Below are positions 13,195 through 39,644 of a DNA stretch of 64,000 nucleotides, piece after piece. The DNA comes from a phage, in the sequence record PX441839.1. One strand, 5' to 3'. The notes beneath the pieces were generated by a model, which did no database searches, had not been told where the DNA came from, and saw nothing but the letters and a program-made list of their open reading frames with translations. The first letter of the stretch is position 1; every line of letters starts with the position of its first letter. The translations under genes and the position numbers were made by a program.

Positions 13195-13226
13195 AAAAAG
13201 GCTCCCGAATGGGAGCCTTTTCTTTT
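13195..13226. terminator. Bidirectional terminator between convergent transcription units
   Basis: GGCTCCC-GAAT-GGGAGCC hairpin flanked by an A-run and a T-run; lies between the last plus-strand fibre gene and the last minus-strand gene. Confidence 0.6.
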
Positions 13227-13231
13227 ATGTA

Positions 13232-14431
13232 TTACAGGACATAAATCACGTGGTTAGGATATTGAAGCCCTACCGGAGCGAAGGGGATGTCATCATCGAA
13301 ATCCATAACATCTGGGGTGTAGTCCAGATGACCATCATCGCTTACCGGAACTTGAGGATTAGTATCCTGAGGTTTTTGTTCCAGTTGAGGTTCAGGGGCT
13401 TTTTCTGGAGACGCGTCTTTCCGAACAAGGTCTTCTGTCGCATTGATGAATCGGAAGGTTGTTTCCACATTCTCAATAAACTGATCAATACCTTCTTGAC
13501 TGTGTCGAGCAGCCAAGATACCGGATTGGCCCAGACGAGCACCAAACGCATAATCATCCATACCTTTGAACTCTTCCCGCAGCTTGGCCTTGATGGTATC
13601 CATAGCTTTCAGAACCTGCACCACAATAATTTGCTGATCGACGATAGCTGCATTTGGGAACATTGCATCTGTGATAGTCAGTGCGTTGCCTAAACGAATC
13701 GGCAAGTCATCCTTTCCACCTTTACGGGAACCACCTGCACCACCTGCACCTTTTGGACCATAAGCCTTGAAAGCACTGATTGAACCATCAGCCGCCCGCT
13801 GACCAGCCAAACGACCACCCTCTTGGATCTGGGAGAGTTGCTCGTCTGACAGCTTAACGGTAACATCGCCATTATCTGTCTTCACTACAACGTCTGAGCC
13901 GCTCACAGAGACGATTTCTCCGTAAACCTTAGTGGTTGCACCACCTGCACCTTGAGAGCCTCCCTGAGGTGTCTGAGAGCCTTGCGGAGCTACATCTCGA
14001 GCACCAGATGCATCGGTAATTTTAATTTTGTTCTTTTTACCCTCGGTGGAGGTTCGTTCATTACCCTCTCGGTCTTTGTAATATTTAACCTGCACTGGTA
14101 GACGAATCTTCATGCCTGGTTTAAGGCTTACATATTTGTCACCTTCTTTGATCTGGAACTGATCTTCGTATTTCAAGTTCTTAACTTCACCTTCTCCAAA
14201 AGAGATCCAAGCTGAATCTTCACCTTCTTTCAACAGGATAGAATAGCGATGGGTAGACTTGATAGTCTTACCTGCATTTGGACCCTTGTTGATGTGGGTG
14301 ATTTTAGGACTACCGTCCTCATTGATACGTTTGATATTGATACGTTCAATTGTTCCAGCGGCGACGTGTACAGTCACATCATTAACAGCATCATAAACAG
14401 AGTTAACAACTTGAATTTTAACTTCGGACAT
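13232..14431 (-). CDS. SSB-like protein carrying an internal copy of the bacterial SSB C-terminal tail
   Basis: 399 aa; G-rich low-complexity middle; near the C-terminus the peptide MDFDDDIPF matches the E. coli SSB tail but is followed by 15 further residues. Confidence 0.4.
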   Translation of the reverse strand: MSEVKIQVVNSVYDAVNDVTVHVAAGTIERINIKRINEDGSPKITHINKGPNAGKTIKSTHRYSILLKEGEDSAWISFGEGEVKNLKYEDQFQIKEGDKYVSLKPGMKIRLPVQVKYYKDREGNERTSTEGKKNKIKITDASGARDVAPQGSQTPQGGSQGAGGATTKVYGEIVSVSGSDVVVKTDNGDVTVKLSDEQLSQIQEGGRLAGQRAADGSISAFKAYGPKGAGGAGGSRKGGKDDLPIRLGNALTITDAMFPNAAIVDQQIIVVQVLKAMDTIKAKLREEFKGMDDYAFGARLGQSGILAARHSQEGIDQFIENVETTFRFINATEDLVRKDASPEKAPEPQLEQKPQDTNPQVPVSDDGHLDYTPDVMDFDDDIPFAPVGLQYPNHVIYVL

Positions 14432-27586: not shown

Positions 27587-28426
27587 TTACACTTTTCTTG
27601 CATTGCTGGGAAATTCTCGTTTCTCCGTATCACCCCATATGATCCTTACAGCAGATGCACCTGGGGCATTTGAAGATCCGTGTCCAGACCCACCTCCGAA
27701 GTTTCCTCCTCGTCTACCACTCTGGTCTTCGCCTCCAGACCCACCTCTTGCACTTGTGGGGATTTGACCACCCCTGCCCCCTGCACCATTGACACCTACT
27801 CCGTAAATACCCACTCCACCACCGCCACCTGAGTTTTCACCAGATGACCCTGAGAAGTAATATCCTACAGATCCTCCACCCCCACCACCTTCCCCGCTAC
27901 CTCCAGCGGAGTAATTTGTAGAAGGGGGGTATGCATTACCTCCGTCCCCTCCCTTTCCTATATACCCTGCTGCACCTCCAGCGCCAGCACATCTTTTCCT
28001 GTCATTGGCGGAGGAGTTACTCCCTCCAGCACCACCTTTGTTTATTACCGCACCACCCATATCAGGATACGATCCTGTGTAAGGTTCCGGTCCAGAACCA
28101 AACCCTGCGACAACCAGCGGAGTTCCATCCCGAAAAAGTCCAACAACAGTTGTCCCATCATCGCTGCCTCTTGTGTGGACCTGTAGAGTCTCCCCAGGTA
28201 GCACAGGTATGTGGTTTCTCCATACTAGGTCTCCCCCAGCACCACCTCTACGTGGGAGAGGATCTGTTTGAGGCATCCCTCCTTGACCGACACACACTAC
28301 GCTAATATCTTCCACATTGTTTGGAACAACCCACAACTTAGGTGCAGTAGTGAGGGAAGTGTACTCCACATTCCCTAGTTTAACTGGAGCTTTAGTTTTT
28401 ACCGTCGCTGTCATTAATTCTAACAT
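27587..28426 (-). CDS. Glycine-rich protein with fused N-module
   Basis: Starts MLELMTATVKTKAPVKLGNVEY (resembles the micro-ORF N-module), followed by long GGxGG low-complexity tracts; start moved to the internal ATG that carries the shared motif. Confidence 0.45.
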   Translation of the reverse strand: MLELMTATVKTKAPVKLGNVEYTSLTTAPKLWVVPNNVEDISVVCVGQGGMPQTDPLPRRGGAGGDLVWRNHIPVLPGETLQVHTRGSDDGTTVVGLFRDGTPLVVAGFGSGPEPYTGSYPDMGGAVINKGGAGGSNSSANDRKRCAGAGGAAGYIGKGGDGGNAYPPSTNYSAGGSGEGGGGGGSVGYYFSGSSGENSGGGGGVGIYGVGVNGAGGRGGQIPTSARGGSGGEDQSGRRGGNFGGGSGHGSSNAPGASAVRIIWGDTEKREFPSNARKV

Positions 28427-28451
28427 AACTTTCCTCTTTAAGATACTAATT

Positions 28452-28709
28452 CTAGAACGGGTCTCCATCCAAGATCGGTATTAGCTGTACCGTTAATCTT
28501 CCCACCGAAGATATTCCCAGTAGACTAGGAGATACCTCTGCGTGGAACATGTTATTTTGGTACATTGTGAATTCAGTCGATAGTGAGTACCTGCCGTAAA
28601 TTGGAGGGTTAAAGTCCGTAGTTGGCAAAGTCAGAAGTGTCATAAGTACCTCTCTAAAATTCAATGCAATTGGATCGCTGTTTATAAAACCATAAAGTCT
28701 TCCTTCCAA
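28452..28709 (-). CDS. Hypothetical small protein
   Basis: 85 aa ORF inside the array; contains an EVLMTLLTL stretch. Confidence 0.3.
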   Translation of the reverse strand: MEGRLYGFINSDPIALNFREVLMTLLTLPTTDFNPPIYGRYSLSTEFTMYQNNMFHAEVSPSLLGISSVGRLTVQLIPILDGDPF

Positions 28710-29501: not shown

Positions 29502-29801
29502 TCAGTGACATTGCCCCCAATTAAGTCCTGTCAGATACTCACCTGTGATATGTACAGGTGCCTTCATCATCTTAGCTGCTTGTTCAACGCAACGAACAAC
29601 CATTTCACCGACAGGGCAGTAGATGATAGTGAATATTCCATTCTCATCGGGGTCGCACTTAAACTTACCTTCCTTGACACAATGACCATCCAGAACCATA
29701 CGCTTCTTGAGGCAATCCTCAACAAAAGCTTTTGCTTCGACTTCATTGTCAAACTTCCATTCCTTCTTGAACTTATTTGGAACTTCAAGCTGGTATTCAT
29801 C
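29502..29801 (-). CDS. DNA polymerase (family A), exon 2
   Basis: Translation begins DEYQLEV (motif C region) and ends ...LNWGQCH, resembling the T7 gp5 C-terminus; a TAA lies in frame just upstream, so this cannot be a continuous extension. Confidence 0.55.
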   Translation of the reverse strand, partial: DEYQLEVPNKFKKEWKFDNEVEAKAFVEDCLKKRMVLDGHCVKEGKFKCDPDENGIFTIIYCPVGEMVVRCVEQAAKMMKAPVHITGEYLTGLNWGQCH

Positions 29802-30631
29802 CAAAGTTTAGCAGGTTCGTTAATCCTGCCCACACCATTACGTGTTGCCATACGGTTTCCCGTAGGATCGGACTATATCACCACCCTTTTCAGGGTGCTC
29901 CCCATTTCGACGCCACTTGGTCGCCTACGCCTCTCGGCTAGTCTCTGAACGTTAAGACCACGTATACTTCTCGGAAATATGCTTCCACTGCCGACGCTGC
30001 TTAATGGCTCGTACTGTTGCATAGGGGAATCCCATGTCGCGTACCTCTGCCTGGCTCATTCCGCTTTCAAGAAGCTGGCAAATGGTCATCACTTCGTCTT
30101 CTGTGAGGGCACTATTAGCATTGTTGATACCTTCCGCGCTGCGACAGTTGTGGCGATAGGCGTTCTCTATGTTTTTGCCTCTCGTAACCCACTGTAGGTT
30201 GTCTTTGTGGTTATTCCTTTTATCGGGCCACTTGTGATCAACCTCTGGAAGATTGTTCGGATTGGGAACAAAACATTCTGCCACCAAAACATGGACCGCC
30301 TTTGTCGTCGCCTTTTTGTTAAGGTAAAGACTGACAATTGCATACCCTCTTCCATTATCAACATGCTTCATAGGTTTACCTCGACGACCTATAATGGTCC
30401 CGTCCTCGTAAACTTTATATCCGAAATAGTCTTTGTACTCCACGTAGTCCTCTTCGCTGCTGATTAACATAGCTGCACTTTAGTTTATTATTAACCCAGT
30501 GTCAACCTTAGCCTTCCAGCAATTAAAGGAGTTTTCGATGTAGGTTGCCCTACAAAGCCACAATGTTACTTATGGTAATAGATAATACGACGAACTCCCT
30601 CGTCATACCATCCCTTCTTGACCAGTTGCCA
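29802..30631 (-). mobile_element. Group I intron in the DNA polymerase gene (boundaries approximate, about +/-6 nt)
   Basis: On the transcribed strand: P-like AATTGCTGGAAGG, R-like GTTCAGAGACTAGCC, S-like GATATAGTCC, terminal G before exon 2; contains an HNH ORF. Confidence 0.55.
29952..30470 (-). CDS. HNH homing endonuclease (intron-encoded)
   Basis: VHVLVAECFVPNPNNLPEVDHKWPDKRNNHKDNLQWVT His-Me finger signature; paralog of the ORF in the second intron. Confidence 0.65.
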   Translation of the reverse strand: MLISSEEDYVEYKDYFGYKVYEDGTIIGRRGKPMKHVDNGRGYAIVSLYLNKKATTKAVHVLVAECFVPNPNNLPEVDHKWPDKRNNHKDNLQWVTRGKNIENAYRHNCRSAEGINNANSALTEDEVMTICQLLESGMSQAEVRDMGFPYATVRAIKQRRQWKHISEKYTWS

Positions 30632-32899
30632 GTGAAGCAAGATTCCAACCAGGTCAAATAGTGCTGCACCACCATTCTGCTGAAATGCGTTCAACAGGGA
30701 GTGCTTTGAACGAGTCCAAATCTTACGCCCATCCAAACCATAGATGAATCTTTTCCCTGTCGCTTCCCAGAATTTCTCCAGCGCTTCTTTACGACCTTTT
30801 AATCCGATGTTGCTATCCCAGAATGCGTTGATTACATCCTGTGCCTTATCTACTGTGATTCCAAGCATGGATGCAATCTTGGGTGCCTGAGCGCCGTACA
30901 TGATTCCATACGTGATACTCTTTCCCTCGCCACGAGAAACCTTCTTCCCCGCTGCCTTTGTGTATGCCTCTGCGTTTCGGGTGTGGGCGTCCCCCGACTC
31001 CATGATTTCAAGGTAAGCGCCACCATCGAACTCATACGCACCCCAAGCCGCAATCATACCTTCCAGGTTAGAACCATCAATACCCACTTGGTACTTACCC
31101 TTTGGTGCTCGCCAAAGGGAACGCATCTCATAACCAAACAACACCTTCGGATCAGGCTTAGGCATGTTTGCGCAGATCGTGTGCTTACGACGCCCAGTGT
31201 TGGTAATCCCTGAGAACCTTGCTGGTAATCGACCATCAATCTTCAAGCGTGGGTGGTTAAGAAGTCCAGTATCAACCTTATCCTCTTTCAGTGGATCAAG
31301 GACAGATCGTCGGTTACGTGCAGATAACCACTGAACAATGCCTTTAGCCATCGCACCATCCACCTTTTCCAAGTTTGGGCACAATCCCTGCTGGTCTTTC
31401 AACTGAGGGCTTGTTGGCAATGCACGGGCCTTCTTACGGAAGAATTTGAACATCTTCTCCTTGTCTGCCCACTGCTTAGGGGTAATGTGCAAGTTCTTAA
31501 GGATAAGATCACGATATTCTGTCTGATCTAGTTGCTCAATATACTCCCGCACAATTGCATCAACTTCACCATCCGGACGTTGCTTTTTAAACTGGTCCTT
31601 TGTTGCATCCTTTGTACGCCAAATTGTTGGAATCCAACCCGCATCTCGGATGAGGAACTTCTTAACATCATCCTGGTTACCGATACGCATCGGAATCATT
31701 ATATCTGGCATGGTCTTATTCTTCAAGTCCGCCAAAGCCCGTGCCATATCCTCTGGAGGTAGTGGCTCCAGTGTGGATTGTTTTTCGTTCTGACTACGAA
31801 TGAACTGAGGCATTTGATCCTCATCTTCCACCCCGTGGTCATTACAGTATTTAATAGCCGCAGCCGTAAGTGAACCATCTGCCTTAAATGCTTTAGCCGG
31901 AGGCCCCTTGAAATCAAGGGCTTCCCAATTAATATTGTATCCTAACTTCTCCAGCCATTTCCAACCTGTGCCGGACAATGTCCCGTCACCCTTGAAAGGT
32001 TTGGATGGGAAAGTTGGTTGTGCGGATTTAGCCATCTCTTTCTTCGGAAGCTGAGGCTCAACCTCTTCCTCAATCTTCTTCATGAAGGCATCAACCGTAT
32101 CGCGGAGTTTCAGCGCCGCCTCTATGTCAAAATCAACACCTTGGATTTCTTGCTCAATCATCAGGTAATCGGTAAGCATACCTCGACGAAGAGAGTCTTT
32201 CCAGTTGATCATTTTATATTTTGTTGGGACACGCTCATCTTTAAACATGAAGCGTTTATCATCTGGGTACGCATCGCAGGTGATTTCCTTCATAAGGGCG
32301 TCCCACACCTTTTCGTTGATGATAACGTCCTCAATGATACGGTCACAATACTTCCACAACGGGAGTCCACGCCAATCATCAATGGCGACTTTCAGGTTGG
32401 CTACTCTCATACCCCATGCTTCCAGACCATGAGGGCCAACAGGTTTCATCTTTCCTGTGACAGGGTTTTTAACCATTTCTGGGCAACCCTTCGGCAATGG
32501 GCGGTCAGGGTAGAGTGTACGAGACATAGACAAGGAGTCAAACAGGTTAACCTGTTTTCCATTGATCGTTCCCATGCACTTAGGATCGGCAAACATATCG
32601 TATTGTGTACCGAACAGCTTCTTGAACAGACGTAAGTCATATCCAAACAAGTTGTGAATAACAATGCTACTAGGGACTTCTGTGAACCATCTATTAAGGT
32701 CAGAGAAGTTCATTACATGCAGATTGAATCCCTTCGCATTAACGAAGTTCAAAGCCTCTTGATAACCCTCTCGCGCTGGGTCCATGAAGAGATACCAGTT
32801 ATCCTTTTTGTACTCCTTGAAGAGGATGCAGTGAGCATGTAAGTTCTCCTCGTCAAGTAAACCAGATGCTTCCGCATCACCTACCCATAAACCTTTCAT
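30632..32899 (-). CDS. DNA polymerase (family A, T7 gp5-like), exon 1
   Basis: Exo I GDAEASGL; motif A IDGSNLEGMIAA; motif B RGEGKSITYGIMYGA; the ORF-track C-terminal 21 codons (30566-30631) are interpreted as intron read-through. Confidence 0.75.
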
Positions 32900-32955: not shown

Positions 32956-32976
32956 AAGCCCAGCTTTCACTGGGCT
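32956..32976 (-). other. Hairpin upstream of the polymerase gene (terminator or attenuator)
   Basis: AGCCCAG-CTTTCA-CTGGGCT followed by a T-run on the minus strand. Confidence 0.4.
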
Positions 32977-32982
32977 TCTGTA

Positions 32983-33578: not shown

Positions 33579-33844
33579 TAATACTCTCCTCTCAGAAGGC
33601 CATCTTTGTCAGGGAAGGTGGCACCATCACCACCTTCAAACATTCCGTCCAGGTCTGCGATTACAAGAGCACCCTGCTCACCTGACTGAACAAACCGTAG
33701 AGATCCTGAATAAGAACCACCACCAAAAATTTGGATACCTAGGGCCTGAGCTTGTCGCCCGTAACGGGACAGACCTTTTGCAATACGCTCAACTTCTTTT
33801 GGATCTAAACCTGCTGCTTCACACTCATCAACATTCGCGTACAT
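33578..33844 (-). CDS. Hypothetical protein
   Basis: 88 aa ORF. Confidence 0.35.
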   Translation of the reverse strand: MYANVDECEAAGLDPKEVERIAKGLSRYGRQAQALGIQIFGGGSYSGSLRFVQSGEQGALVIADLDGMFEGGDGATFPDKDGLLRGEY

Positions 33845-34212
33845 TATTTCTCCAGATATTCCAAGCGAGGGTATTTTTTACCTGCGTAGGTTTCGACATT
33901 ACCACACTTGTTACAGGTATGTGGGTACTTTATCGGGCTGGACAGAAGTGCATCTCCACGAGACTCCATTTCCCCACCGCATTCGCAATACATGTGGATA
34001 AAGTAAGGTTTTGCCTCTACTCGCCGTTCACCCTTTGTCGGCTTAGGATCTGTGGCCCTCATGTTCCATTGTTCTTGGAGATAATCAAATCCGTGTTCTG
34101 TTCTTTTCTGACAGCCGCAGTTCCCACATTCGGCAACGTACCGATCAGAGTACCTTTTCTCCTCATATGTGTATGCTTCACTCCCGCAGAACGGACAAGG
34201 TTTAAAGTTCAT
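33844..34212 (-). CDS. Double zinc-ribbon protein, Lar-like (possible restriction alleviation)
   Basis: N-terminal PCPFCGSEAY...CGNCGC and a second CECGG...CNKCG pair; the CPFCG start is reminiscent of Lar-family proteins. Confidence 0.35.
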   Translation of the reverse strand: MNFKPCPFCGSEAYTYEEKRYSDRYVAECGNCGCQKRTEHGFDYLQEQWNMRATDPKPTKGERRVEAKPYFIHMYCECGGEMESRGDALLSSPIKYPHTCNKCGNVETYAGKKYPRLEYLEK

Positions 34213-34654
34213 TATCGACCTCCAGACTTAACTCAACCATAGCTTTCTGCCCTGTTGCGCCATAATAAAAAACTTGGAAACTGTCGAAAGTGTAATAAAT
34301 ATCCCACATATCAGGATCTGTAGGCCAGCACTCGATCAATTTACCGCTGTCCCATTCATCCCCTACCCACTCATCATAACCCTCAACATTTTTGTAGTGC
34401 TTGCTCCCACTTTTCCCATTCGGGTATTCTGCCAAGCAACGTAAGAGGAAATTAACAAAACGTTTAAGGTCCTTTTCCCCTTCAAATACAAACACTTCAT
34501 TTTTGTAACCGTCTGCATCACCAATCATCCAGCGAGCTTCAACCGTGTAGACATTGAAGTGTTCCAGAGGGACAAGTCCGGTAATGTTAAGATCTTTGAC
34601 CTTGTAGGTTTTTGTGTCTCGAAACTCTTGAGTTACAAACGTTTTCTTTATCAT
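34202..34654 (-). CDS. Hypothetical protein
   Basis: 150 aa ORF. Confidence 0.4.
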   Translation of the reverse strand: MIKKTFVTQEFRDTKTYKVKDLNITGLVPLEHFNVYTVEARWMIGDADGYKNEVFVFEGEKDLKRFVNFLLRCLAEYPNGKSGSKHYKNVEGYDEWVGDEWDSGKLIECWPTDPDMWDIYYTFDSFQVFYYGATGQKAMVELSLEVDNEL

Positions 34655-34663
34655 AGTGTTTCC

Positions 34664-35377
34664 TTATTGGTTGTGTAGGAAAACTGCCTTTGCCAAACCC
34701 CTTGGGGTAAGGGAGCGTATCAGTTTTGTACGTGCCGATTTACCACCTAACTTATTATGCTGCTCAGAATATCCCTGTGCGACACCGACAGGCGACTTCA
34801 CTGGCATCTTGAACCCTTTCCCCGTCCAAAGGCATGTCTTCTTAGGATAAGCGTCACGAGCCTTAATGTACTCAGGGAAAAATGGATTCACATCATCCTC
34901 CGGTAAGTAACCACCATACTCATATGGGTGGAACTGGTAGTCAGATTTTCTCCATTTTGTTGCCAAAACACTTACAGGGTTTTCTATCATGTAAGGGCAG
35001 TCGAAAACAAACTCTGCCAAGTATGCCGGAATTTTTGCAGTACGTACAGCATTTATTTGGAAAAATGGATCTTTTGCTGCTTTTCTTTTAAAGTGGGCTG
35101 CACCGCTCACCGCCATATCTGTGCAGGGAGGGAAGGCAAAGATAATATCTGGGTTTGGGATTCCCAAACTTTCAACATTCTCTGCCCACTCCATGTCAAT
35201 CCACGCATCCACATACGTCACGTTCGGGTGATTAACTCTTACATTATCATACAATCCGTGGTCAGCCTCCTTAGCGTTGAAGCAGAAGCACAGGTGACCA
35301 GCTTTTGCCCAATCAAAGACCATTGCCCCAGATCCATCAAACAAAGACCAAACAACCTTTTTAGACATGCTTTTCAA
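34664..35377 (-). CDS. DNA (cytosine-5)-methyltransferase, small
   Basis: Motif I LFDGSGAM (FxGxG), motif IV FPPC (catalytic PC), motif VI ENP in canonical order. Confidence 0.55.
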   Translation of the reverse strand: MKSMSKKVVWSLFDGSGAMVFDWAKAGHLCFCFNAKEADHGLYDNVRVNHPNVTYVDAWIDMEWAENVESLGIPNPDIIFAFPPCTDMAVSGAAHFKRKAAKDPFFQINAVRTAKIPAYLAEFVFDCPYMIENPVSVLATKWRKSDYQFHPYEYGGYLPEDDVNPFFPEYIKARDAYPKKTCLWTGKGFKMPVKSPVGVAQGYSEQHNKLGGKSARTKLIRSLTPRGLAKAVFLHNQ

Positions 35378-36700: not shown

Positions 36701-36761
36701 TTTGTCCTCTCCTTATTTGATAGGGTAAGTATAAGTGAGATTTTGCCCCATGTCAAATGAA

Positions 36762-36780
36762 AAAAGGCCCCCGAAGGGAC
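36762..36780. terminator. Hairpin terminator after the primase-helicase gene
   Basis: Imperfect GGCCCC-CGAA-GGGACC hairpin flanked by A-run and T-run, immediately 3' of the stop at 36788. Confidence 0.45.
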
Positions 36781-36787
36781 CTTTTAT

Positions 36788-37258
36788 TTAGAAAGGTGGT
36801 TGGTCATCCCAATCACTGTCGTCTTCCACAACCTCAGGTGTGACTTTAGATTCTTCCGGTTTGGAATCCTCTTTAATCTCCATCTGCTGTGGTTCAATGT
36901 CATCTTCATCATCAGGGATATCGTCTTCCTTGAGATCAGATAGACCTTTCTCCGAGTTCTCTTGTGATAATGGCTGCATTTTACCAACAGCCTTCTCAAC
37001 ATAATGTTCAGAACTTGGATCATCTTCTGGATGAATCGCATACCACTCTCGAAGAGTTTCATATGGACTGTCCAAGAAGCCTTCTGGCGGTTCTAAGTAA
37101 TCACCTGTGTCAATATCATAGAACACAGGGAACTTCCCGCTACGCCCGTGCTTACGGTCATCTAGAATTACAAACCAAGAGGTATTTCGCTCTTTCATTG
37201 GCAACTCTGGATCTTTGTTACGCTCAATACCCACCATAAAATAAGTGTTCTTTTTGTC
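36788..37258 (-). CDS. Primase-helicase (T7 gp4-like), exon 2
   Basis: Begins DKKNTYFMVGIERNK...DDRKHGRSG...YDIDTGDYLEP (helicase C-terminal motifs) and ends in an acidic tail DDSDWDDQPPF with terminal Phe, as in T7 gp4. Confidence 0.55.
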   Translation of the reverse strand, partial: DKKNTYFMVGIERNKDPELPMKERNTSWFVILDDRKHGRSGKFPVFYDIDTGDYLEPPEGFLDSPYETLREWYAIHPEDDPSSEHYVEKAVGKMQPLSQENSEKGLSDLKEDDIPDDEDDIEPQQMEIKEDSKPEESKVTPEVVEDDSDWDDQPPF

Positions 37259-38123
37259 CAGTGGGTTCGCTACTCCCACCCGGTGCGATTCCTGGCACCC
37301 GCCTACACTTTCGTGCAGGAACAGACTATATCATCACCTTTCGGTGCTCTCCGCTTCGGGACCGCTTGGCCCTAACGCCTTTCGGCTAGTCGTTGAGGTT
37401 TTTGCACGTTCTGGGTACATCTTCCAAGAATACAAGTCCCCGACCTCTTTCCAATCCCTTCGGGAGCGGATATTGAGGACTGCTGACCTTGTTACAGGTA
37501 ATCCACTATTATCGACAATCTTCTGCGCTGACCAACCCTCAGAAAGAAGCCTACAAATTTTGTGAACCTCTGCCTCTGTGACTTTGGACCTGTAATGATC
37601 CTCTCCCCTCTTTGGAAGCTTATTGGCAATAGAGTGCTCAAGATTTTGCCTACCAGTGACCCATTCCAGGTCATCTTTGTGGTTAAATTCCTTGCCTCTT
37701 TTATGATTAACTTCGGGTAAGTTCAGCGGGTTTGGAATATAAGTCTTAGCTACCAACCTGTGAACATACTCGGGCGTTCTCTTACCTTTAAGTATCACAT
37801 TGACAAAATAATACCCTGTACTCTTGTTTCGAATGTTCTTCAAAAATTTATTTGTGAACAAACTAAATACCTTGCCATCTTCTGTTACAAGATATTTACT
37901 ACCCTCTTCTATTGGTATCATGTTTCCCCCTTCTTTATTCTAACAAAAGGGTATAATACACAAAAGAATTTGAATATGCAACTTACCTGCTGATTACCCA
38001 ATCCTCTGTCTTTTCAAACATTCACGCCCACCCTTACGGGTCACGTTGTAGTGCCAGAGGCTCTAAGGGCTTCCCAGCAATTCAAAGAGTTTTACATGCG
38101 CTAAATCAACGCATCATCGCACG
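37259..38123 (-). mobile_element. Group I intron in the primase-helicase gene (boundaries approximate)
   Basis: P-like AATTGCTGGGAAG, R-like CAACGACTAGCC, S-like GATGATATAGTCTG on the transcribed strand; core clearly related to the polymerase intron; contains an HNH ORF. Confidence 0.5.
37334..37921 (-). CDS. HNH homing endonuclease (intron-encoded)
   Basis: YVHRLVAKTYIPNPLNLPEVNHKRGKEFNHKDDLEWVT; paralog of the ORF at 29952-30470. Confidence 0.65.
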   Translation of the reverse strand: MIPIEEGSKYLVTEDGKVFSLFTNKFLKNIRNKSTGYYFVNVILKGKRTPEYVHRLVAKTYIPNPLNLPEVNHKRGKEFNHKDDLEWVTGRQNLEHSIANKLPKRGEDHYRSKVTEAEVHKICRLLSEGWSAQKIVDNSGLPVTRSAVLNIRSRRDWKEVGDLYSWKMYPERAKTSTTSRKALGPSGPEAESTER

Positions 38124-39644
38124 AGAACCTGCAAACTGTGCCGACTGAACCTGACCACCAAATTCATGGGGTTTTCCAGATTCCGGTTTGTTCAAGTGAC
38201 AGAAACAATAATATGTGAAACCTAAGTCCTTTGCAAGGATAGAGATCTCATCTGAAAATCGTTCCAGTTCTGTGTTAGCATCACCTGGTGACATACCTTG
38301 CACAAGTCGAGTAATTGGGTCGATAATAATATCTTCACAACCCTCCACCAAGACTGCGTGGCGGATTGCACCCTTCACCTCGTCCCATACTGCACGACCA
38401 TAGTTGGAATAATAAATGATCTTATCGCCAACATAATCTGTAGCTTGGATTAGTTCTTCATGCTTGAAGTATCCACGTTGTCCTTCAAAGATTTCGTTAC
38501 CCCAAACATCTCGGTAAGTCCCATCTTCCTGAGGGATCATTACCTTTTCTGCGTTAATGAAGTCCTTGTGGTAAATTTTACCTGCAACCTTCTTACAAGT
38601 GATGTCGTTCTCTTCTTCAAACTTAAAGATACCGACTTTCTTCTTGTCTTTTTCAATGATGTGCTCGACAAGTTGGTTAACAAACTCGGACTTACCGATC
38701 TTAACACCTGCACCAAGGAAGTATCCCTCTCCTTTACGACGACCCAGTGTCAACTTGGTCATGGTAGGCCAAGGCCATGATTTACCAAGTTTTGGAATCT
38801 CGTGCGCTTTGTCTCGAAATTGTGCATACGTAGAGAAACCTTCTGGTACATAGTCCTTTGGCTTCATTGCTGCCCAGAATAATTGGTCAGCCATTCCCTT
38901 GATGTACATGTCGCATGGGTCCATGTCCTCTGGGATGTCAACAACCTTCATCTGAGGAATTACTGAGTAAACCGCTGCAACAGCATCCTTACCTTTCATA
39001 ATCCCCTTGGCCTTTTCTGCCTCCGTTGCACGATCAGCATCAAAAGCTACAATAATCTCTTCAAACTTGTTCAGAAGCTTGTAGTTGTTCTTCTGAGCTA
39101 GGTTCTGCACGGCATTAGATGTGCCGTTGGAAATTGAGACCACCGTGAAGTTTGGTTTACGTGCATTTCCATCCTTAGATTTATACTTTTCTCGGAGAAC
39201 CTGCCACAACACTGCCGCATCGTACTCGCCCTCCGTGATAAAAATCATGCGACGTGAGGATTTATTTGCACCCTCCAGACCAAACAGGTCACAAGCGACA
39301 GATTGGAAACCAATCGTACTAAAGTGGCCCTTCTGTTGCTTAGGAATGGTCAGATCTCGCTTCTTAAAGCCGACGATCTTACCCTCCAGTGTGTAGGGAA
39401 AATAGTGCGCCTCTGGTGTCATCCCATCCTTGGCAGACAGCTTAGTCCTGATTCCAAAGCGCTCTGCCGTCTTCTGATCGATACCTCGCTCAGGGATGGC
39501 TTTAAATGGGTAAGTTTTTACATCTTCTACTGTTTCTTCAACCTTGTTCATACGACCACCCCCTACTGAACGAGATACCGATGCCTTCGGGTTCTTGTAC
39601 CCCGTCTTATAACCACCAAACAGACCTTCACCTAATGTGCTCAC
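38124..39644 (-). CDS. Primase-helicase (T7 gp4-like), exon 1
   Basis: TOPRIM FITEGEYDA; Walker A GAGVKIGKSEF; H3-like CHLNKPESGKPHEFGG; last few ORF-track codons (38106-38123) interpreted as intron read-through. Confidence 0.7.

What the first reader, a model, noticed from the sequence alone, without database searches (positions are those of the whole stretch)
33844..35377. Candidate anti-restriction module: Lar-like zinc-ribbon protein next to a compact C5-cytosine methyltransferase
The methyltransferase has motifs I, IV (catalytic Pro-Cys) and VI in order but is only 237 aa. Two genes upstream is a double CxxC zinc-ribbon protein whose N-terminus (PCPFCG) recalls restriction-alleviation proteins. 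Together these would protect the phage genome from host restriction.
Basis: partly seen in the sequence, partly recalled or inferred. Interest (0 to 1): 0.45.

Follow-up and report, generated by a model that had tools for sequence, protein, structure and literature searches.

The report
Phage Dcm-like methylase near Lar-like gene
The phage carries an ordinary member of a widespread, already tested family of small phage cytosine methylases, and two genes further on a small Lar-type zinc-ribbon protein; both probably help against host restriction, but separately rather than as a unit.

Summary
On the minus strand lie a 234-aa (237 from an upstream TTG) C5-cytosine methyltransferase-like gene, a 150-aa gene of unknown function, and a 122-aa zinc-ribbon gene with a Lar-type N-terminus.

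The Lar-like protein passes the Pfam Lar threshold and is 44% identical to E. coli RalR/Lar over 55 residues. It is fused to a second, unrelated 4-Cys zinc ribbon.

The "module" reading is weak. The two genes lie close only in one Vequintavirinae branch (window phage, SSBI34, Certrevirus). They are not close in rV5-type phages, Phapecoctavirus, or 80 other loci. The K42 enzyme works alone.

Verdict: new members of known families, low interest.

The parts
34664..35368 (-). Compact Dcm-like C5-cytosine DNA methyltransferase, 234 aa from the ATG (the mechanical ORF starts at the TTG at 35377, 237 aa). The ATG overlaps the end of the upstream gene by 8 nt.
   Evidence: - phrog_757, E 4.6e-83. Pfam PF00145 scores only 20.2 bits, below the gathering score of 22, over aa 10-119.
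- 53% identity over the full length to the KarlJaspers Bas06 Dcm-like enzyme.
- AF2 pLDDT 92.3, pTM 0.91.
- PPC, ENP and the C-terminal RSLT.RG block are invariant in 48 homologues.
34202..34654 (-). 150-aa protein of unknown function between the two genes. It starts 9 nt after the methyltransferase stop codon and overlaps the Lar-like start by 11 nt.
   Evidence: - phrog_8562 (unknown function), E 2.1e-22. Only a weak sub-threshold Pfam hit, SH3_14.
- One homologue among 5.8 billion proteins.
- Homologous ORFs in SSBI34 (not annotated there) and downstream of the Dcm-like gene in L030-L032.
- The AF2 model is unusable, pLDDT 50.
34048..34209 (-). Lar/RalR-type zinc-ribbon domain (aa 2-55) of the 122-aa protein encoded at 33844..34212.
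   Evidence: - Pfam PF14354, 36.3 bits against a gathering score of 28.6.
- phrog_38103 and phrog_599, 'Lar-like restriction alleviation protein'.
- 44% identity over 55 aa to E. coli K-12 RalR, pairwise E 9e-10.
- Below the TIGR03655 cut-off (36.8 against 39.6) and far below the RalR equivalog cut-off (26 against 113).
33847..34035 (-). Second zinc-ribbon module (aa 60-122; CxC ... P..YPH.C..CG ... YP..EY) fused to the Lar domain.
   Evidence: - phrog_9369, unknown function.
- In the exhaustive search this module mostly matches free-standing 60-70-aa proteins.
- Four Cys are invariant in 41 homologues.
- No Pfam family and no PDB relative.
- In Pectobacterium phage POP15 the two modules are separate neighbouring genes in the opposite order.
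36728..36785 (-). Predicted terminator (36785-36762) followed by a promoter-like site (36756-36728, 11 of 12 matches). This is the likely start of the transcription unit that holds the three genes.
   Evidence: Consensus scan only. Not evidence of function.
32956..32977 (-). Predicted intrinsic terminator, the likely end of the same small-gene cluster, just before the DNA polymerase gene.
   Evidence: Consensus scan only.

Best explanation
The window comes from a Vequintavirinae-type (rV5-like) myovirus. Its closest GenBank relative is Salmonella phage SSBI34.

The methyltransferase gene
- Gene 34664..35368 encodes an orphan, SAM-dependent DNA cytosine-5 methyltransferase of the compact phage 'Dcm-like' family.
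- It has the Rossmann-type catalytic core: motif I FDGSG, a catalytic Cys82 in PPC, and Glu129 in ENP.
- In place of the large target-recognition domain of classical bacterial enzymes it has only a short segment, as DNMT3A/B do.
- By inference from the K42/KarlJaspers homologue and from Pantoea phage AAS23, it methylates the inner cytosine of CCWGG on replicating phage DNA.
- That would make the window's 83 CCWGG sites resistant to EcoRII-type enzymes, whether or not the host has its own Dcm.
- It would also expose the phage to defences that sense this methylation, such as retron Ec86/Eco1.

The Lar-like gene
- Gene 33844..34212 encodes an independent small protein: a Lar/RalR-type zinc ribbon fused to a second zinc ribbon.
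- Its most likely role, by family analogy only, is to blunt type I restriction early in infection.

The arrangement
- Both genes sit, together with about nine other small genes, in a tightly packed, probably co-transcribed accessory cluster between the primase-helicase and DNA polymerase genes.
- Their closeness reflects shared ancestry of that cluster, not functional dependence.

Shown here: gene structure, homology, conserved catalytic residues, predicted fold, and the distribution and linkage of the genes.
Inferred: enzymatic activity, CCWGG specificity, a protective effect, and any activity of the Lar-like protein.
For: Identity of the phage
- 83% nucleotide identity to SSBI34 (Vequintavirinae), collinear over about 26 kb.

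The methyltransferase
- phrog_757, E 4.6e-83.
- 4987 homologous clusters, mostly 225-255 aa, and 1515 phage records.
- 53% identity over the full length to Bas06 KarlJaspers 'Dcm-like C5 cytosine methyltransferase'.
- The K42 enzyme comes from a 711-bp gene in a genome 95.4% identical to Bas06. Expressed alone, it gave 5mC on retron msDNA by LC-MS.
- The retron defence needed the CCTGG site in the msDNA. The enzyme's toxic effect with the retron was lost in the C82A/E128A/K175A/K176A mutant.
- The corresponding residues here are C82, E129, K176 and K177.
- AAS23 gp52, also annotated as a cytosine methyltransferase with no conserved domain, comes from a phage whose virion DNA was reported Dcm-methylated (PMC8004638).
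- CCWGG sites are retained (83 in 64 kb), while many 6-bp palindromes are eliminated.

The Lar-like protein.

Independence of the two genes
- No Lar-like ORF within 6 kb of the Dcm-like gene in 80 IMG/VR loci.
- None in rV5-type nimi or in Phapecoctavirus nieznany.
- None in the two loci whose methyltransferase is closest to this one, L006 and L007.
Against: - No experiment exists on this protein or on any Vequintavirinae homologue that I could find.
- At 53% identity, specificity could differ from K42. The loop at aa 190-205 is divergent and less confidently modelled.
- The protein scores just below the Pfam gathering threshold for PF00145 (20.2 against 22 bits), and only over its N-terminal half.
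- The BASEL study found no simple link between phage methyltransferase genes and resistance to the restriction systems it tested (PMC8594841).
- The founder Lar has been reinterpreted as a DNase toxin, RalR (PMC4041452), so 'restriction alleviation' is an uncertain label for the family.
- Dcm-like and Lar-like genes do lie 1-2 kb apart in Certrevirus CR3 and POP15 as well. A lineage-specific functional link therefore cannot be excluded.
Confidence: 0.72

Rival explanations
1. The methyltransferase, the 150-aa protein and the Lar-like protein form one cooperating anti-restriction module. For example, the Lar-like protein could enhance modification by the compact methyltransferase, as Lar and Ral enhance modification by EcoKI.
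For: - The three genes are packed tightly with overlapping or abutting start and stop codons, and are probably co-transcribed.
- Dcm-like and Lar-like genes lie within 1-2 kb in SSBI34, CR3 and POP15.
- A homologue of the 150-aa gene lies downstream of the Dcm-like gene in L030-L032.
Against: - No Lar-like ORF near the Dcm-like gene in 80 other loci, in rV5-type phages, in Phapecoctavirus, or in the closest methyltransferase relatives L006 and L007.
- The genes in between differ among lineages.
- The K42 Dcm works alone in E. coli.
- The gene next to the KarlJaspers Dcm is unrelated to the 150-aa protein.
- Tight packing is general in this cluster of small genes.
Confidence: 0.08
2. The Lar-like protein is not an anti-restriction factor. 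It is a small zinc-dependent DNA-binding protein or nuclease of the RalR kind, used for host takeover or host DNA damage, or it has another unrelated role.
For: - RalR, the founder of the family, is a non-specific DNase toxin (PMC4041452).
- The window protein is 44% identical to RalR across the RalR core.
- The extra zinc ribbon suggests an added nucleic-acid or protein contact.
Against: - It scores far below the RalR equivalog cut-off, 26 against 113 bits.
- No RalA-type antisense RNA was looked for or seen.
- The classical genetics of Lar (King and Murray 1995, cited in PMC4041452) showed restriction alleviation.
Confidence: 0.2
3. The methyltransferase-like protein installs something other than a methyl group (for example carboxymethyl from Cx-SAM), acts on RNA, or serves chiefly a purpose other than anti-restriction, such as gene regulation or packaging.
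For: - BASEL found no simple link between methyltransferase genes and restriction phenotype.
Against: - LC-MS found 5mC for the K42 homologue.
- AAS23 virion DNA behaves as Dcm-methylated.
Confidence: 0.07
4. The compact protein is the catalytic half of a split C5-methyltransferase of the M.AquI alpha/beta kind, and the downstream 150-aa protein supplies the target-recognition part.
For: - The protein is short, and a co-transcribed gene follows it directly.
- The existence of split enzymes of this kind is recalled from my own knowledge, not from a tool result.
Against: - The C-terminal invariant block (KLGGKS.RTK.IRSLTPRG) already closes the fold, and the model is complete and confident.
- The 150-aa gene is absent next to the gene in KarlJaspers and most other phages.
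- The K42 enzyme is active alone.
Confidence: 0.02

Closest known systems
Phage K42 / KarlJaspers (Bas06) Dcm-like C5-cytosine methyltransferase (Drexlerviridae, Hanrivervirus); Wang et al., Cell Rep 2024; bioRxiv 10.1101/2023.08.16.553469
   Same: - Same length class (236 against 234 aa).
- 53% identity from end to end.
- Same motif order, and the same C82, E128/129 and KK residues.
- Same predicted DNMT3-like compact fold.
- An orphan gene in an early/replication region.
   Different: - A different phage family (a siphovirus of about 51 kb against a myovirus likely around 140 kb).
- The loop at aa 190-205 diverges.
- Activity, CCWGG specificity and retron triggering have not been tested for the window protein.
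Classical bacterial C5-methyltransferases (E. coli Dcm / M.EcoRII, M.HhaI; Pfam PF00145)
   Same: - SAM-dependent Rossmann core with motifs I, IV (Pro-Cys) and VI (Glu-Asn-x).
   Different: - About 100-240 residues shorter.
- No large target-recognition domain.
- ENP instead of ENV, PCT instead of PCQ.
- Below the Pfam gathering score.
- No PDB chain is matched by a sequence profile of the family.
DNMT3A/DNMT3B catalytic domains
   Different: Only 13-15% identity, eukaryotic, regulated by extra domains and by DNMT3L. The similarity is one of fold, not of family history as far as is shown here.
Lar / RalR of the E. coli K-12 Rac prophage (Pfam PF14354, TIGR03655)
   Same: - The N-terminal 55 residues align over the RalR core at 44% identity.
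- They include KPCPFCG, the second Cys pair and the E.WN.R motif.
- The protein passes the Pfam threshold.
   Different: - Twice as long, because a second zinc-ribbon module is fused on.
- Fails the TIGR03655 and RalR equivalog cut-offs.
- Sits in a lytic myovirus, not a lambdoid recombination region.
- No RalA-type antitoxin RNA is known here.
Lar-like genes of Certrevirus phages (CR3 gp064, phiTE, CB7, POP15)
   Same: - Same subfamily and the same helicase-to-polymerase accessory cluster.
- A Dcm-like gene lies 1-2 kb upstream.
   Different: In those phages the Lar module is a free-standing gene of about 50-65 aa. In POP15 the second zinc ribbon is a separate neighbouring gene in the opposite order.

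Membership tests
DNA cytosine-5 methyltransferase superfamily (PF00145 / TIGR00675) | Motif I (F-x-G-x-G, SAM binding), motif IV (catalytic Pro-Cys) and motif VI (Glu-Asn-Val type), in that order | tested here: met
   FDGSG at aa 10-14, PPC at 80-82 and ENP at 129-131. PPC and ENP are invariant in 48 homologues.
DNA cytosine-5 methyltransferase superfamily (PF00145 / TIGR00675) | Score at or above the curated family threshold | tested here: not met
   - PF00145: 20.2 bits against a gathering score of 22, N-terminal half only.
- TIGR00675: 12.7 against 100.65.
- A profile of the family finds no PDB sequence at E up to 1.
DNA cytosine-5 methyltransferase superfamily (PF00145 / TIGR00675) | C5-methyltransferase catalytic-domain fold | tested here: met
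   - AF2 pLDDT 92.3.
- The Foldseek hits with E up to 1e-5 are all DNMT3A/3B chains, best E 2.4e-7.
DNA cytosine-5 methyltransferase superfamily (PF00145 / TIGR00675) | Motifs VIII, IX and X, and a target-recognition domain between VIII and IX | tested here: inconclusive
   An invariant C-terminal block, KLGGKS.RTK.IRSLTPRG, resembles motif IX/X, and KKT (176-178) may stand in for motif VIII. No residue-level structural alignment was available to assign them. The segment in the place of a recognition domain is only about 40-60 residues.
DNA cytosine-5 methyltransferase superfamily (PF00145 / TIGR00675) | Transfer of methyl from SAM to C5 of cytosine in DNA | not testable with these tools
   Shown for the K42 homologue by LC-MS, not for this protein.
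Compact phage Dcm-like methyltransferases (phrog_757; K42/KarlJaspers Dcm) | Full-length homology at about 225-255 aa | tested here: met
   phrog_757, E 4.6e-83, aa 2-236. 53% identity to Bas06 Dcm over 234 of 236 aa, E 2e-86.
Compact phage Dcm-like methyltransferases (phrog_757; K42/KarlJaspers Dcm) | Residues mutated together in the K42 loss-of-function construct (C82, E128, K175, K176) | tested here: met
   They align to C82, E129, K176 and K177 of the window protein. C82, E129 and K176 are invariant in 48 homologues.
Compact phage Dcm-like methyltransferases (phrog_757; K42/KarlJaspers Dcm) | CCWGG specificity | not testable with these tools
   Only indirect evidence. The region at aa 135-190 is well conserved with Bas06, and the window keeps 83 CCWGG sites.
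Lar / RalR restriction-alleviation family (PF14354, TIGR03655, NF007260) | Score at or above the curated thresholds | tested here: inconclusive
   - PF14354: met, 36.3 against 28.6.
- TIGR03655: narrowly not met, 36.8 against 39.6.
- RalR equivalog NF007260: not met, 26 against 113.
So it is a member of the broad Lar domain family, not an orthologue of RalR.
Lar / RalR restriction-alleviation family (PF14354, TIGR03655, NF007260) | Four-Cys zinc ribbon with the KPCPFCG start and the E.WN.R end, alignable to K-12 RalR | tested here: met
   BLASTP against NP_415864 (ralR, b1348): 24 of 55 identical, E 9e-10, covering RalR residues 5-55.
Lar / RalR restriction-alleviation family (PF14354, TIGR03655, NF007260) | Alleviation of type I (EcoKI) restriction, or DNase toxicity countered by an antisense RNA | not testable with these tools
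   No functional data. No search for an antisense RNA was made.
Split (alpha/beta) C5-methyltransferases of the M.AquI kind | A second, co-conserved gene that supplies the recognition domain and motifs IX/X | tested here: not met
   The 150-aa neighbour has no counterpart next to the KarlJaspers gene and is found in only a few lineages. The K42 enzyme is active alone.
DNA C5-carboxymethyltransferases (Cx-SAM dependent; PDB 8yf3) | Use of carboxy-SAM, normally with a CmoA-type Cx-SAM synthase encoded nearby | not tested

The most novel reading that the evidence does not exclude
In this branch of Vequintavirinae, the rare Lar-plus-zinc-ribbon fusion, possibly with the 150-aa protein, could be a partner of the compact methyltransferase. 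The methyltransferase has almost no recognition domain, so a partner might steer or boost its modification of phage DNA. This would parallel the way Lar and Ral enhance modification by EcoKI. It would be a new kind of accessory-factor-assisted orphan methyltransferase.
Probability: 0.04. Interest if true: 0.5.

Novelty: new member of a known kind. Interest (0 to 1): 0.15.

Why it matters
It matters little beyond annotation.

- The result gives a firm, literature-backed name ("Dcm-like C5-cytosine methyltransferase") to a gene that the closest GenBank relative lists as a hypothetical protein.
- It yields two testable predictions: virion DNA of this phage is 5mC-modified at CCWGG, and the phage may trigger retron Ec86/Eco1.
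- It shows that the neighbouring Lar-type gene is a domain fusion.

The wider open point concerns the whole family, not this locus. How does a roughly 230-aa enzyme with a minimal recognition region read a 5-bp site? And how much protection does it give in nature?

Tried and rejected
- **Split methyltransferase (alpha/beta):** rejected.
- **Structure of the 150-aa middle protein:** only two sequences could be supplied. The model had pLDDT 50 and was not used for a fold search.
- **Sequence-profile search of the PDB:** the methyltransferase family gave no hit at E up to 1. The C-terminal zinc ribbon gave only chance-level hits. Pfam has no family for it.
- **PADLOC:** only weak generic methyltransferase hits. 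Nothing for the Lar-like or 150-aa proteins.
- **A second methyltransferase in the window:** there is no homologue of the rV5-type adenine methyltransferase and no DPPY-type motif in ORFs of 120 aa or more.
- **Literature on methylation of rV5-type phage DNA:** nothing useful found.
- **Word-indexed homologue searches for the two small proteins:** only 3 hits and 1 hit. The exhaustive search was needed to see that the 122-aa protein is a fusion.
Full report
**What is there**

The region 33844-35377 holds three minus-strand genes that abut or overlap.
- 34664..35377: 237 aa from a TTG. Homologue N-termini point to the ATG at 35368, giving 234 aa.
- 34202..34654: 150 aa.
- 33844..34212: 122 aa.

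The methyltransferase ATG overlaps the end of the preceding gene. The 150-aa gene starts 9 nt after the methyltransferase stop codon. The 122-aa gene overlaps the 150-aa gene by 11 nt, and its stop codon overlaps the next ATG.

A consensus scan places a terminator and a strong promoter-like site at 36785-36728, and another terminator at 32977-32956. The three genes therefore probably belong to one transcription unit of about eleven small genes, between the primase-helicase and DNA polymerase genes. That is a prediction from consensus matches only.

**Which phage**

The region is 83% identical in DNA to Salmonella phage SSBI34 (Vequintavirinae, 141 kb). No other GenBank phage matches at the megablast level. 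The window is collinear with SSBI34 over about 26 kb. SSBI34 annotates the methyltransferase homologue as a hypothetical protein and does not annotate the 150-aa ORF at all.

**The methyltransferase**

Against general libraries the protein is weak.
- Pfam PF00145: 20.2 bits, just under the gathering score of 22, N-terminal half only.
- TIGR00675: 12.7 against 100.65.
- A family profile finds no PDB sequence.

Against phage families it is unambiguous: phrog_757 'DNA methyltransferase', E 4.6e-83, end to end.

The family is very large.
- 4987 clusters at E up to 0.001, and the 120 best are 219-259 aa long.
- tblastn finds it in 1515 of 50,697 phage records.
- These span Vequintavirus, Phapecoctavirus, Kagunavirus, Drexlerviridae, a P1-like plasmid prophage (D6) and Arthrobacter phages. 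Other groups of about 40-50-kb enterobacterial phages also carry it.

So the short length is the family norm, not a truncation.

An AlphaFold2 model built on 48 homologues is confident (pLDDT 92.3, pTM 0.91).
- Foldseek's best PDB matches are DNMT3A/3B catalytic domains, E about 1e-7.

**Experimental anchor**

The BASEL phage KarlJaspers (Bas06, Hanrivervirus) annotates a 711-bp 'Dcm-like C5 cytosine methyltransferase'. The window protein is 53% identical to it over the whole length (E 2e-86).

The preprint 10.1101/2023.08.16.553469 (published as Wang et al., Cell Rep 2024;43:114857, PMID 39395169) studied phage K42, whose genome is 95.4% identical to Bas06. It reports the following.
- Escape mutants from retron Ec86 all hit the 711-bp dcm gene.
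- Expressing the gene alone is toxic only when the retron is present.
- The msDNA acquires 5mC, by LC-MS.
- Defence against the phage requires the CCTGG site in the msDNA.
- The C82A/E128A/K175A/K176A mutant is inactive.

In the pairwise alignment those residues correspond to C82, E129, K176 and K177 of the window protein. C82, E129 and K176 are invariant across 48 homologues.

A second paper reports on Pantoea phage AAS23 gp52, likewise a cytosine methyltransferase in which BLASTP found no conserved domain. Restriction digests showed that the virion DNA behaves as Dcm-methylated (PMC8004638). Locus L063 has exactly the AAS23 genome length and 55% identity to the window protein. That L063 is AAS23 is my inference.

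Membership in a functional, already characterised enzyme family is therefore well supported. Activity and CCWGG specificity of this particular protein remain inferred.

**Composition**

- The window keeps 83 CCWGG sites. That equals the zero-order expectation and is about 60% of a Markov expectation.
- Several 6-bp palindromes are absent: CTGCAG 0 against 18 expected, GGATCC 0 against 15, AGGCCT 0 against 11, GGTACC 0 against 10.
- This fits a phage that avoids some restriction sites passively and would need another means for CCWGG. It proves nothing on its own.
- No second methyltransferase was detected in the window.

**The Lar-like protein**

- Residues 2-53 match Pfam Lar_restr_allev above threshold (36.3 against 28.6 bits) and two PHROGs named Lar-like.
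- They narrowly miss TIGR03655 (36.8 against 39.6) and are far below the RalR equivalog model (26 against 113).
- Direct comparison with E. coli K-12 RalR (b1348) gives 44% identity over 55 residues, covering the RalR core.
- The exhaustive search of 1.84 billion representatives shows that the protein is a fusion. Residues 1-55 match Lar-type proteins. Residues 60-122 match a separate family of mostly free-standing 60-70-aa proteins.
- That second family has four invariant Cys and a P..YPH.C..CG...YP..EY signature. It has no Pfam family and no solved relative.
- Only SSBI34 and one or two metagenomic proteins share the full architecture.
- In Pectobacterium phage POP15 the two modules are neighbouring separate genes in the opposite order. 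In CR3, phiTE and CB7 the matches cover only the Lar module.

What Lar-type proteins do is itself unsettled. The founder was described genetically as alleviating EcoKI restriction (King and Murray 1995, cited in PMC4041452). It was later described as a non-specific DNase toxin, RalR (PMC4041452).

**Are the genes a module?**

I fetched 80 viral loci carrying the Dcm-like gene with up to 6 kb on each side. I then searched all their ORFs for both halves of the 122-aa protein and for a CPFCG...CxxC pattern.
- No Lar-like gene was found in any of the 80 IMG/VR loci. Apart from the window itself, only the SSBI34 locus gave a match. The other pattern matches look like unrelated Cys-rich, probably HNH-type, proteins.
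- rV5-type phage nimi has the Dcm-like gene directly upstream of primase-helicase, with no Lar.
- Phapecoctavirus nieznany has it next to other genes and a Sir2 gene.
- The two loci with the most similar methyltransferase (L006 and L007, 68-69% identity) also lack a Lar-like neighbour.

Against that, Certrevirus phages CR3 and POP15 do have a Dcm-like gene 1-2 kb upstream of their Lar-like gene, with different genes in between.

The proximity is thus a feature of one branch of Vequintavirinae. Inherited gene order in a variable accessory cluster explains it most simply. The K42 enzyme needs no phage partner, and the gene next to the KarlJaspers dcm is unrelated to the 150-aa protein.

**The 150-aa gene**

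It matches phrog_8562 (unknown function), has one database homologue, and has relatives downstream of the Dcm-like gene in L030-L032. Its structure could not be predicted usefully (pLDDT 50). Its function stays unknown. I see no evidence that it is part of the methyltransferase.

**Mechanism proposed**

- The 234-aa enzyme binds SAM through motif I and the C-terminal block (inferred).
- It flips the target cytosine, attacks C6 with Cys82 and transfers the methyl group to C5. This is the established C5-methyltransferase chemistry, inferred here from the conserved residues and the fold.
- By homology its target is the inner C of CCWGG.
- It would act on newly replicated phage DNA faster than, or in the absence of, host Dcm. 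That would block EcoRII-type cleavage.
- The cost is recognition by methylation-sensing defences such as retron Ec86/Eco1.
- The Lar-like protein would act separately, most likely on type I systems. This last step rests on family analogy only.

**Verdict**

Both genes are new members of known families, and one of those families is already characterised biochemically. Interest is low.

Noticed in passing
window 29802-30571 (minus strand); Rfam hit 29849..30581; homing-endonuclease ORF 29952..30470: The family-A DNA polymerase gene is interrupted by a group I intron (RF00028, 54 bits, above the gathering score of 50). The intron carries a 172-aa ORF with HNH-like motifs that looks like a homing endonuclease (not scanned against Pfam or PHROGs). 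Exon 1 (30566..32899) ends ...IIYYH. Exon 2 (ORF 29502..29804) starts DEYQLEV, so the split falls in the conserved YYHDE stretch, presumably polymerase motif C. SSBI34 lacks the 770-bp insert and has an intact 875-aa polymerase.
   Followed up: partly
window 37247-38109 (minus strand); Rfam hit 37302..38170; homing-endonuclease ORF 37334..37921: The primase-helicase gene has a second 863-bp insert that SSBI34 lacks. It carries a 195-aa ORF that shares motifs with the intron-borne endonuclease-like ORF in the polymerase gene. Its match to the group I intron model is only sub-threshold (23.8 bits, E 0.011). The exons are roughly 38106..39644 and 36788..37279.
   Followed up: partly
whole window: Several 6-bp palindromes are strongly avoided: CTGCAG, GGATCC, AGGCCT, GGTACC, AGTACT, CGTACG and GTCGAC are all absent against 7.5-18 expected. 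The 4-mers CCGG, CATG, CGCG and TATA are under-represented. GATC and CCWGG are retained.
   Followed up: partly
L001 (SSBI34) 13205-13666 and 13667-14326: The GenBank record of SSBI34 leaves the homologue of the 150-aa gene unannotated. It starts the methyltransferase homologue late (219 aa) and calls it a hypothetical protein.
   Followed up: yes
L088 (Pectobacterium phage POP15) 2444-3050; L087 (Cronobacter phage CR3) 3462-3686: The two halves of the window's 122-aa protein occur as separate adjacent genes in POP15, in the reverse order (zinc ribbon first, then Lar). In CR3 only the Lar half was matched. This is a small case of domain fusion and shuffling among phage zinc-ribbon genes.
   Followed up: partly
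window 27587..28468 (minus strand): A 293-aa ORF very rich in glycine, with GGxGG-type runs, lies downstream of the polymerase region. It was not examined.
   Followed up: no
L030 5816-6007: In a 141-kb relative, a 63-aa CxxC...CxxC zinc-ribbon ORF that is not Lar-like lies immediately upstream of, and overlaps, the Dcm-like gene. A Sir2-like ORF lies about 2 kb downstream (named by analogy with the annotated Sir2 gene in the same position in nieznany), as in Phapecoctavirus nieznany.
   Followed up: no
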